DNA of 4,816 nt from a virus. Its lineage: Duplodnaviria > Heunggongvirae > Uroviricota > Caudoviricetes. Positions 3,867 to 4,816 of the stretch are shown here, piece after piece (within the stretch, counting starts at the first letter, position 1; every line of letters starts with the position of its first letter). Under the pieces are notes generated by a model. It searched no databases and was not told where the DNA came from. It saw only the letters and a program-made list of their open reading frames with translations. The translations under genes were made by a program, and so were the position numbers. The stretch lies in the IMG/VR virus record IMGVR_UViG_2713896737_000023. One strand, written 5' to 3'.

Positions 3867-4539
3867 TATCTTGCTGTGAAAATGTGGTCTTTTGTTTTGA
3901 ACGTGTTTTCGTTAAAAGCAATAAAGCTTGGCTATCAAGCTGTAGAAAAATGTGTTTCATTGCAACCCAGCGTTCAGTAAATGTCTCAGACCAGTTTTTT
4001 GATGTCACTCCCACCAGTGATGCCAGCTCCTGGTATTCATAGGTCTTACGCCCTGCCAGCTCGTTCTTCACATCCTGTGCCGCCAGCCAGATCAACTTCT
4101 TCAAACGTTCCAGTGTCTTACCTGCAATTTTCCTGGTACCCAACAGAGTCTTAAACTCGCTCCATGCCCACTGCGTTATGGTGACCTGATGTTCCCAGCG
4201 AACACTTTCGCTGTAACTCCACAGCAACCACGCTTTCTGATGTTCTTCGAGAGACAGAACCGCGCGGCGCCATGACGAGGTTGAGAACTCAACCTGGCTG
4301 ACCAGTGCAATGGATGAACCTTTTGCGTACGACTGCTTACCGGAAATCGGCGGATTATCCAGCGTAATCATCCTGCCAGTTACCTCATCCAGAATGCGCG
4401 GCTTCTTTCGTTTGTATGTACCAGTATCAAATTGTGCATGCTCCAGCCAGGCTTCAAGCTGTCCTTTCGTTGCTCCGCTCAAATCAGCGGTAGCCACAAT
4501 GAGTTGCTCGCGGACATACTGTAAATATTGGGTATTCAT
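3850..4539 (-). CDS. Putative late-gene antiterminator Q (229 aa, non-lambda type, no cysteines)
   Basis: 229-aa ORF with an AGGAG Shine-Dalgarno 7 nt upstream. It is directly upstream of a promoter, tandem terminators and the lysis cassette, which is the canonical Q position. It has no similarity to lambda Q as recalled and lacks any Cys, so it is not a zinc-finger Q-lambda type. Assignment is by synteny. Confidence 0.55.
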   Translation of the reverse strand: MNTQYLQYVREQLIVATADLSGATKGQLEAWLEHAQFDTGTYKRKKPRILDEVTGRMITLDNPPISGKQSYAKGSSIALVSQVEFSTSSWRRAVLSLEEHQKAWLLWSYSESVRWEHQVTITQWAWSEFKTLLGTRKIAGKTLERLKKLIWLAAQDVKNELAGRKTYEYQELASLVGVTSKNWSETFTERWVAMKHIFLQLDSQALLLLTKTRSKQKTTFSQQDIAKLD

Positions 4540-4676
4540 GCGGCAGCTCCTTTCAGTGTTTTGGCGTAATTCTTCAGTATCCGGTAATCGGTCAAAACAG
4601 AACCAGGAAAACGATATAAGCGCAGGCGCATCCAGCGGTGGCGAAGACGTTCTGCCATATAAGACTCAAACATCAT
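4536..4676 (-). CDS. Small basic ORF (about 46 aa; YlcG-like by size and position), translationally coupled to the Q-like gene
   Basis: My own translation of the minus strand: ATG ATG TTT GAG TCT TAT ATG GCA GAA CGT ... GGA GCT GCC GCA TGA = MMFESYMAERLRHRWMRLRLYRFPGSVLTDYRILKNYAKTLKGAAA. Its TGA overlaps the Q-like ATG (ATGA), and GGGGA lies 4-7 nt upstream of the two candidate ATGs. It is below the ORF-track size cutoff. DLP12 has a 46-aa ylcG directly upstream of its Q homolog. Confidence 0.4.
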   Translation of the reverse strand: MMFESYMAERLRHRWMRLRLYRFPGSVLTDYRILKNYAKTLKGAAA

Positions 4677-4689
4677 TCATTCCCCAGTT

Positions 4690-4816
4690 TGAACCGCCCC
4701 GGAAATCCTGGAGACTAAACTCCCTGAGAAAGAGGTAAACAGGATGACTAAAAATACTCGTTTTTCCCCCGAAGTCCGTCAGCGGGCGATTCGTATGGTT
4801 CTGGAAAGTCAGGATG
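4690..4816 (+). mobile_element. Left end of an IS3-family insertion sequence (IS629/IS1203-like), terminal inverted repeat starting TGAACCGCCCCGG, element continues beyond the window end
   Basis: The sequence from 4690 (TGAACCGCCCCGGAAATCCTGGAGACTAAACTCCCTGAGAAAGAGGTAAACAGG) then an ATG is the typical IS3-family left-end architecture: a TG-starting inverted repeat and orfA beginning about 55 bp in. Assignment to the IS629/IS1203 group is from memory of the OrfA N-terminus. Confidence 0.8.
4744..4816 (+). CDS. IS3-family transposase OrfA (helix-turn-helix subunit), N-terminal fragment
   Basis: Translation MTKNTRFSPEVRQRAIRMVLESQD..., with the FSPE(V/F)R...A(I/V)R(M/L)V motif characteristic of IS3-family OrfA HTH proteins. 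AAGAGG Shine-Dalgarno upstream. Truncated by the window end. Confidence 0.8.
   Translation, partial: MTKNTRFSPEVRQRAIRMVLESQD

What the first reader, a model, noticed from the sequence alone, without database searches (positions are those of the whole stretch)
4536..4816. IS3-family element inserted 13 bp upstream of the ylcG-like/Q late-regulator unit
The IS left inverted repeat begins at 4690, only 13 bp from the start of the small ORF that is translationally coupled to the putative Q antiterminator. In lambdoid phages Q is transcribed from pR through the nin region. An IS here, with its transposase reading away from Q, separates Q from that upstream promoter unless RNA polymerase reads through the whole IS in antisense. 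That could make the prophage poorly inducible or lysis-defective, or put Q under a new promoter. The prophage otherwise keeps an intact cos site and lysis cassette, so the IS may be the main lesion keeping it cryptic.
Basis: partly seen in the sequence, partly recalled or inferred. Interest (0 to 1): 0.6.

Follow-up and report, generated by a model that had tools for sequence, protein, structure and literature searches.

The report
IS629 inserted in O157 prophage Sp8
A copy of the common jumping gene IS629 has landed in the last codons of the rusA gene, just upstream of the late-gene activator Q, in the already defective Sp8 prophage of E. coli O157:H7; this is an ordinary strain-specific insertion, not the reason the prophage is dead.

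Summary
Window 4690-4816 is 127/127 identical to the left end of IS629/IS1203 (IS3 family, 1310 bp). It starts 13 bp from the ylcG start codon, and ylcG overlaps Q by ATGA. More than 1000 complete E. coli genomes carry the uninterrupted site, and similarity breaks exactly at 4689/4690.

The interpretation needs three corrections:
- **Not intergenic.** The insertion lies inside the 3' end of rusA, whose stop codon overlaps the ylcG start.
- **The host element is Sp8.** Window 1-4689 is 100% identical to prophage Sp8 (at icd) of O157:H7 Sakai. Sp8 has a fixed deletion that joins xis to a truncated O gene, so it has no cI, cro, N or pR. In Sakai, which has no IS at this site, Sp8 was reported neither to excise, replicate nor be packaged. 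The IS therefore cannot be the main lesion, and there is no pR to be cut off from.
- **IS629 need not block antiterminated transcription.** A stx2::IS629 phage still makes plaques.

The IS probably still silences ylcG-Q. No promoter-like site faces Q, and about 1.1 kb of untranslated antisense RNA would precede ylcG.

The right end, the target duplication and the far flank lie outside the window, and I found them in no database. IS629 insertion polymorphism in O157 prophages is well documented, so interest is low.

The parts
4690..4816 (+). Left end of IS629/IS1203 (IS3 family), cut off by the end of the window after exactly 127 nt
   Evidence: 127/127 identical to full 1310-bp copies such as L016 1601-2910
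4690..4714 (+). Left terminal inverted repeat (IRL), starting with 5'-TG
   Evidence: 22 of 25 positions match the reverse complement of the right end of the full copy
4744..4816 (+). First 24 codons of transposase orfA (MTKNTRFSPEVRQRAIRMVLESQD), reading away from Q
   Evidence: Matches the start of Pfam HTH_Tnp_1 (E=0.0013, below the cut-off because it is truncated). Coincides with the start of the annotated transposase CDS in full copies.
4687..4689 (.). Predicted target-site duplication (GTT). The second copy would lie beyond the IS, outside the window.
   Evidence: Inference. A reference copy has a 3-bp duplication, AAG, and IS629 is reported to duplicate 3-4 bp (PMC3271280). Not observed here.
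4673..4689 (-). Remnant of the rusA 3' end (codons L-G-N-E plus stop). It holds the ylcG ribosome-binding site (CTGGGG, 4682-4687).
   Evidence: Alignment to the uninterrupted Sp8 site. The RBS is annotated at the equivalent position of phage 82 X92588.
4536..4676 (-). ylcG (orf45 of phage 82), 46 aa. Its stop overlaps the Q start (ATGA).
   Evidence: NCBIfam NF033498, E=5e-23; annotation of identical copies
3850..4539 (-). Late-gene antiterminator Q, phage 82 type, 229 aa
   Evidence: PF06323, E=1.4e-94; 225/229 identical to phage 82 Q
3838..3866 (-). Promoter-like site (TTGCAA-17-TATATT) at the 3' end of Q, a candidate late promoter pR'
   Evidence: Consensus scan only
3652..3834 (-). Predicted pR' leader with two terminator-like hairpins (3782-3756 and 3668-3652)
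   Evidence: Terminator scan; fold z = -3.3; sub-threshold Rfam isrJ hit at 3755-3834

Best explanation
A strain-specific copy of IS629 (also called IS1203; IS3 family, 1310 bp) has transposed into prophage Sp8 of an E. coli O157:H7 strain. IS3-family elements encode a DDE transposase made by a programmed -1 frameshift and move by a copy-out/paste-in route through a circle. Sp8 is the lambda/phage 82 hybrid integrated at icd.

The IS sits at the junction of codons 117 and 118 of rusA, 13 bp upstream of ylcG. Its transposase reads opposite to the rusA-ylcG-Q operon.

Shown: the identity of the IS end, the exact breakpoint, the identity of the host prophage, and the retention of the ylcG ribosome-binding site.

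Inferred:
- If this is a simple insertion with a 3-bp GTT duplication, RusA keeps 117 native residues, loses its last three (GNE) and gains a 77-residue tail read from the antisense strand of the IS.
- ylcG and Q82 are then separated from any nin-region transcription by about 1.1 kb of untranslated, C-rich antisense IS RNA. That RNA carries no promoter-like site facing Q, so the insertion is probably polar through Rho-dependent termination.
- Sp8 already lacks cI, cro, N, pL and pR and is non-inducible without this IS. The insertion is therefore most likely a neutral passenger mutation, or at most one that further silences the Q-lysis cassette. It is useful as a strain marker, not as the cause of crypticity.
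For: - IS end: 127/127 identity to thousands of IS629/IS1203 copies. A full copy is 1310 bp with TG...CA inverted repeats and a 3-bp duplication.
- Empty site: found in 1135 genomes, with the break exactly at 4689/4690.
- Host prophage: window 1-4689 is 100% identical, ungapped, to Sakai Sp8. The Sp8 gene order is int, xis, O', P, ren, emrE, recombinase, ybcN, ninE, ybcO, rusA, ylcG, Q. The xis-O' deletion junction is in 295 genomes.
- Sp8 status: it lacks CI/Cro and showed no circularisation, replication or packaging in Sakai (PMC2669165). It is among the 'fixed' prophages conserved across O157 strains (PMC5359411).
- IS629 biology: 62% of IS629 sites are in prophages or prophage-like elements, two other Sp8 sites are known, the duplication is 3-4 bp, and there is no sequence-specific target (PMC3271280).
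- No promoter facing Q: none at >=8/12 on the IS antisense strand. C exceeds G in most antisense windows, and 1087 nt lie between the modelled fusion stop and ylcG.
- The same 77-aa antisense tail is seen fused to other genes interrupted by IS629 (P0117, P0119, P0120).
- In the analogous repressor-less prophage DLP12, rusA is normally quiescent (PMC1636454).
Against: - The right end, the duplication and the far flank were not observed. The exact junction is absent from 5426 complete E. coli genomes and from the GTDB species representatives. No RusA::IS629 fusion protein exists in the 5.8-billion-protein collection.
- Only 21 of 47 catalogued IS629 sites have matching duplications (PMC3271280), so an IS-associated deletion or rearrangement is a real alternative.
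- Polarity and Rho dependence are inferred, not measured.
- That the source strain's Sp8 carries the early-region deletion is inferred from 100% identity of the late region, not seen directly.
Confidence: 0.68

Rival explanations
1. The IS629 copy marks an IS-mediated deletion, inversion or recombination between IS copies rather than a simple insertion. Beyond the IS lies something other than the rest of rusA, and the nin region may be missing.
For: The window ends inside the IS, so the far flank is unknown. Only 21 of 47 IS629 sites in reference genomes have matching target duplications (PMC3271280). In strain PSS-11 an IS629-like copy in the same nin region joins a ybcO fragment directly to an int fragment, which is a deletion. 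No RusA::IS629 fusion product was found in public proteins.
Against: The breakpoint is a clean IS terminus at a site that is intact in every other genome examined. Simple insertions are the commonest fresh IS629 events. Nothing in the window points to a rearrangement.
Confidence: 0.2
2. One reading: the IS is the main lesion that keeps an otherwise competent lambdoid prophage cryptic, because it cuts Q off from pR.
For: cosN, Q, holin, endolysin and Rz/Rz1 are intact in the window. The IS does lie between Q and everything upstream, and it has no promoter-like site facing Q.
Against: The prophage is Sp8, which has no cI/cro/N/pR and a truncated O. It is inactive in Sakai, where this IS is absent (PMC2669165). 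Antiterminated polymerase reads through IS629 in a functional stx2::IS629 phage (PMC7430833).
Confidence: 0.03
3. The IS activates ylcG-Q from an outward-reading promoter at its left end, as IS2 and IS10 activate rusA in DLP12.
For: There is precedent for IS activation of a quiescent nin-region gene (PMC1636454). The ylcG ribosome-binding site is retained 2 nt from the IS end.
Against: No -35/-10 match at >=8/12 on the antisense strand of the whole IS or in the 13-bp spacer. From my own knowledge, in IS3-family elements the outward -35 sits in the right end, not the left. Constitutive Q82 would switch on the intact lysis cassette and should be counter-selected.
Confidence: 0.04
4. Assembly artefact: the contig end joins Sp8 sequence to an IS629 k-mer path with no real insertion in the genome.
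For: The IS part is exactly 127 nt, a common maximal k-mer size. The other window end lies in multi-copy nu1/cos sequence. The window therefore looks like a whole short-read contig.
Against: De Bruijn contigs normally run one k-mer into a genuine flanking repeat. The junction falls exactly on the first base of the inverted repeat, as transposition predicts. A graph mis-join would need shared sequence, and the empty site shares none with the IS.
Confidence: 0.03

Closest known systems
IS629 (IS1203/IS1203v) insertion polymorphism in E. coli O157:H7 prophages (Ooka 2009; Rump 2011, PMC3271280)
   Same: Identical element end, the same host lineage, and a prophage target. Sp8 is already listed with two other IS629 sites. 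Many complete genomes carry another IS629 1.8 kb into this same window region.
   Different: This position, at rusA codons 117/118, is in none of the 5426 complete genomes searched.
stx2::IS629 prophage of O157:H7 FRIK1275 (PMC7430833)
   Same: The same IS sits inside a lambdoid transcription unit, which raises the same question of polarity.
   Different: There the IS lies downstream of pR' in a fully functional phage and is read through by Q-modified polymerase. Here it lies upstream of Q in a prophage with no N, pR or repressor.
IS2/IS10 insertions upstream of rusA in DLP12 of E. coli K-12 (Mahdi 1996; summarised in PMC1636454)
   Same: An IS in the nin region of a repressor-less defective lambdoid prophage with the same ybcN-ninE-ybcO-rusA-ylcG-Q gene order.
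   Different: Those insertions lie upstream of rusA and activate it. This one lies in the rusA 3' end, alters its C-terminus, and shows no outward promoter-like site toward ylcG-Q.
Phage 82 rus-orf45-Q region (X92588)
   Same: Q is 98% identical. The window matches at 96% DNA identity across the rus/orf45/Q junction. The overlapping stop/start arrangement is the same, and the putative promoter and palindrome upstream of orf33 are conserved in Sp8.
   Different: Phage 82 has no IS and is a viable phage.
IS629-like insertion in rusA of DLP12 in strains DAM, ANT and VTB97584v
   Same: The same IS family, the same orientation, and the same gene end.
   Different: It sits 26 bp further into rusA, in a different prophage (at argU, with a QuuD-type Q), and the IS sequence differs slightly. 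It is an independent event.

Membership tests
IS3 family / IS629 (IS1203) isoform | Terminal inverted repeats starting 5'-TG and ending CA-3' | tested here: met
   The IRL at 4690 starts TGAACC. In the identical full copy the right end finishes ...GGTTCA, and 22 of 25 positions are complementary. Only the IRL is in the window.
IS3 family / IS629 (IS1203) isoform | Near-identity to a catalogued IS629/IS1203 copy | tested here: met
   127/127 identity to copies annotated 'IS3-like element IS1203 family transposase'. ISfinder itself was not available.
IS3 family / IS629 (IS1203) isoform | orfA with an N-terminal helix-turn-helix, followed by orfB with a DDE (rve) domain, expressed through a -1 programmed frameshift | tested here: inconclusive
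   The window holds only 24 codons of orfA, which match the first 23 positions of HTH_Tnp_1 (E=0.0013, below the cut-off). Full copies identical over these 127 nt have HTH_Tnp_1, HTH_21 and rve domains and an annotated programmed frameshift with pseudoknot.
IS3 family / IS629 (IS1203) isoform | 3-4 bp target-site duplication and a full length of about 1310 bp | not testable with these tools
   The right end lies outside the window. The junction was found in no collection. A reference copy is 1310 bp with a 3-bp duplication.
Q82-type late antiterminator (Pfam PF06323) | Full-length sequence match to the family and to phage 82 Q | tested here: met
   PF06323, E=1.4e-94, profile positions 1-217 of 220; 225/229 identical to CAA63332.
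Q82-type late antiterminator (Pfam PF06323) | A late promoter with a terminated leader immediately downstream of Q, followed by lysis genes | tested here: met
   Promoter-like site at 3866-3838, two terminator-like hairpins, then holin, endolysin and Rz/Rz1. These are consensus matches only; activity was not tested.
YlcG family | A match above the curated cut-off, and a position between rusA and Q | tested here: met
   NF033498, 80.5 bits against a cut-off of 30; synteny in Sp8, DLP12 and phage 82.
Prophage Sp8 of E. coli O157:H7 (at icd) | Sequence identity to the Sakai Sp8 late region | tested here: met
   4689/4689 identical, ungapped.
Prophage Sp8 of E. coli O157:H7 (at icd) | Integration at icd and the xis-O' deletion that removes cI/cro/N/pR | not testable with these tools
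   These lie outside the window. Both are seen in Sakai and TR01, and the junction is present in 295 genomes. For the source strain this is an inference.

The most novel reading that the evidence does not exclude
The rusA/ylcG boundary of repressor-less Q-carrying defective prophages (Sp8, DLP12) might be a recurrent, selected landing site for IS629-type elements. On this reading the IS is retained because it insulates the intact Q-lysis cassette from read-through transcription, and so acts as a domestication device rather than a random hit. The evidence is only two independent insertions within 26 bp of each other, in two prophages, plus other hits in the nin region. My search design also favoured finding insertions in the same orientation.
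Probability: 0.06. Interest if true: 0.35.

Novelty: already known. Interest (0 to 1): 0.08.

Why it matters
It matters little beyond strain typing. IS629 positions are used to fingerprint O157:H7 lineages, and this position is absent from 5426 complete genomes, so it could serve as a lineage or outbreak marker. Biologically it alters the C-terminus of a prophage Holliday-junction resolvase. It probably also further silences a Q82-lysis cassette in a prophage that was already regulatory-dead. The case also shows that an IS next to Q cannot be read as 'the lesion' without looking at the immunity region.

Tried and rejected
- **Search for the source genome or far flank.** The exact 43-nt junction found nothing in the GTDB species representatives. 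A 257-nt junction query against 5426 complete E. coli genomes gave no full-length match at high identity, only unrelated or independent events. A search of the phage collection gave none.
- **Exact-protein look-up of YlcG.** It returned only uninterrupted contexts among the longest contigs.
- **Search with a modelled RusA::IS629 fusion protein against 5.8 billion proteins.** It found plain RusA proteins, and other genes fused to the same IS tail, but no RusA fusion.
- **Promoter created or carried by the IS and facing Q.** None at the tool's threshold, and none at a relaxed 8/12 threshold.
- **Orientation preference of nin-region IS629 insertions.** Rejected as evidence, because my queries could only join pieces in the same orientation.
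- **Solved-structure relatives of this Q by sequence.** None.
- **Literature on Sp8 locus tags ECs1619-1621.** No papers.
- **General promoter scan of the Sp8 nin region.** Not enriched over shuffles (14 sites against 16.6 expected). Only the site also annotated as putative in phage 82 was kept as a lead.

Full report
**What is in the window.** The window is the right end of a lambdoid prophage, read against the direction of late transcription. From left to right it holds:
- the first 35 nt of nu1;
- cosN (GGGCGGCGACCT, 213-224, minus strand);
- ylcI, ybcW and ybcV (DUF1398), then bor;
- Rz with embedded Rz1, a lambda R-type endolysin and a LydA-type holin;
- a 310-bp regulatory gap;
- Q (3850-4539, minus);
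- ylcG (4536-4676, minus);
- 13 bp, and finally 127 nt that begin TGAACCGCCCC.

**Checking the observation.** The last 127 nt are 100% identical to the left end of full-length elements annotated as IS3-like IS1203-family transposase genes. At least 1372 records match at >=99%. One such copy (L016 1601-2910) is 1310 bp. Its ends are TGAACCGCCCCGG...TCCTGGAGA and the reverse complement of that (22 of 25 positions match), and it has a 3-bp duplication, AAG. In the O157 literature this element is called IS629 (PMC3271280).

The transposase orfA begins at 4744 and reads away from Q. The first IS base is 4690 and the ylcG ATG is at 4676, so the 13-bp spacing is correct. The ylcG stop and the Q start overlap as ATGA (4536-4539).

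The uninterrupted site is present in 1135 complete E. coli genomes. In these, identity runs to 4689 and then continues into rusA rather than into the IS.

In the uninterrupted site the rusA stop codon overlaps the ylcG start (ATGA again). The 13 bp are therefore the last codons of rusA (…E-L-G-N-E-stop), and the IS sits at the junction of codons 117 and 118 of 120. The ylcG ribosome-binding site annotated in phage 82 (CTGGGG) is retained, 2 nt from the IS end.

I modelled a simple insertion with a 3-bp GTT duplication. In that model RusA keeps 117 native residues and gains a 77-residue tail read from the antisense strand of the IS right end. Exactly this tail is found fused to other IS629-interrupted genes in public proteins: an Rz-like lysis protein, a flagellin and one other (P0119, P0120, P0117). 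No RusA fusion was found.

Window 1-4689 is 100% identical, without gaps, to prophage Sp8 of E. coli O157:H7 Sakai, which is integrated next to icd.

The Q protein is 98% identical to phage 82 Q, and the rus-orf45-Q arrangement is that of phage 82.

In Sakai and in strain TR01, Sp8 runs int, xis, then a 5'-truncated O gene. P, ren, emrE, a recombinase, ybcN, ninE, ybcO, rusA, ylcG and Q follow. Only about 100 bp separate xis from O', so there is no room for cI, cro, cII, N, pL or pR. This deletion junction is present in 295 complete genomes, close to the 315 that carry this late region.

Asadulghani et al. (PMC2669165) record that Sp8 lacks CI and Cro. They detected no circularisation, replication or packaging of Sp8 in Sakai, a strain with no IS at this site. 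Shaaban et al. (PMC5359411) list Sp8 among the 'fixed' prophages conserved across O157 strains.

So the prophage was already regulatory-dead. There is no pR from which Q could be separated, and the IS cannot be the main lesion. That the source strain shares the deletion is an inference from the 100% identity of the late region.

**Would the IS nevertheless affect Q?** Probably yes. The only candidate promoter for the nin-Q unit in Sp8 is a TTGATT-17-CATAAT site with an adjacent 12-bp-stem palindrome upstream of orf33/ybcN. It is annotated as putative in phage 82 and is conserved in Sp8 (L017 8637-8697). The IS now lies between that site and ylcG.

On the antisense strand of the IS and in 4540-4689 there is no sigma-70-like match, even at a relaxed 8/12 threshold. 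There is only one weak terminator-like hairpin.

In the model, 1087 nt of untranslated RNA would precede ylcG, with C exceeding G in most windows. From established knowledge of Rho-dependent polarity, that is a good substrate for premature termination. This step is inferred, not shown.

Two published facts limit how much weight this carries:
- In the analogous repressor-less prophage DLP12, rusA is normally quiescent (PMC1636454), so there may be little transcription to block.
- An IS629 inside stx2 does not stop late-gene expression or plaque formation in FRIK1275 (PMC7430833). Antiterminated polymerase can therefore cross this element.

**How common is this?** IS629 is the most active IS in O157:H7. 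In reference genomes 62% of its sites are in prophages or prophage-like elements, and two other Sp8 sites are already catalogued. It shows no sequence-specific target and duplicates 3-4 bp (PMC3271280).

Most complete O157:H7 genomes that are 100% identical to this window carry another IS629 between ybcV and bor, at window ~1828-1831. That site is empty here and in Sakai. Strain 3-5-1 has one in ninE. PSS-11 has one in ybcO joined to an int fragment. Three strains have an IS629-like element 26 bp deeper in the rusA of DLP12.

The exact junction seen here is absent from 5426 complete E. coli genomes, from the GTDB species representatives and from the phage collection. It appears to be a private or rare allele.

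**Limits.** The IS fragment is exactly 127 nt, and the other window end lies in multi-copy nu1/cos sequence (4-6 places per O157 genome in the rows listed). The window therefore looks like a complete short-read contig bounded by repeats. This explains why the right end, the target duplication and the far flank are unavailable.

Only 21 of 47 catalogued IS629 sites have matching duplications (PMC3271280). I therefore give about 0.2 to the possibility that the IS marks a deletion or rearrangement rather than a simple insertion. An assembly artefact is unlikely, because the break falls exactly on the first base of the inverted repeat.

**Verdict.** The biological interpretation is only partly supported. 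This is an ordinary, strain-specific IS629 insertion in the 3' end of rusA of the already defective O157:H7 prophage Sp8. Nothing here departs from known biology, and interest is low.

Noticed in passing
window 3755-3834 (-), with 3838-3866 and 3652-3668: A sub-threshold Rfam hit to the Salmonella sRNA isrJ (30.4 bits against a gathering score of 37, E=0.009). It coincides with the predicted short leader that starts at the promoter-like site just after Q and ends at a 12-bp-stem hairpin. A second terminator-like hairpin follows at 3668-3652. This suggests that isrJ-type 'sRNAs' may simply be terminated late-promoter leaders of Q82-type prophages.
   Followed up: partly
window ~1828-1831 (between ybcV and bor): Most complete O157:H7 genomes that are 100% identical to the window carry an additional IS629 at this position. 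Their two matching pieces overlap by 4 nt, consistent with a 3-4 bp duplication. The site is empty in this window and in Sakai.
   Followed up: partly
window 4690-4816 and window 1-300: The IS fragment is exactly 127 nt, a common maximal assembler k-mer size. The left end lies in nu1/cos sequence present 4-6 times per O157 genome in the rows listed. The window therefore looks like an entire short-read contig bounded by repeats.
   Followed up: partly
L002 6117-7463 (strain DAM; also ANT and VTB97584v): An independent IS629-like insertion in the same orientation, 26 bp further into rusA. It lies in the argU-linked DLP12-type prophage, which carries a different Q (QuuD).
   Followed up: partly
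L017 8637-8697 (Sakai Sp8); L018 2213-2273 (phage 82): A putative promoter (TTGATT-17-CATAAT) followed by a perfect 12-bp-stem palindrome upstream of orf33/ybcN. It is annotated as a 'possible regulator-binding site' in phage 82 and is conserved in Sp8. It is the only candidate driver of the nin-Q operon in a prophage that has lost pR.
   Followed up: no
window 3850-4539 (-): The Q82-type antiterminator (98% identical to phage 82 Q) has no relative among solved structures detectable by sequence (E <= 0.01).
   Followed up: no
P0117, P0119, P0120 (public proteins): The same 77-residue peptide (NRPGFPGECFICELRL...CKDH), read from the antisense strand of the IS629 right end, is annotated as the C-terminus of several unrelated interrupted genes (an Rz-like protein, a flagellin and one other). 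It is a recognisable signature of IS629-disrupted genes in protein databases.
   Followed up: no
window 3223-3540 (-): The holin is a LydA-type (PF16083), not a lambda S-type, although the endolysin, Rz/Rz1, bor and cos are lambda-like. The ORF has an upstream TTG (105 aa) and an ATG four codons later (101 aa, the annotated start). This may be a dual-start arrangement.
   Followed up: no
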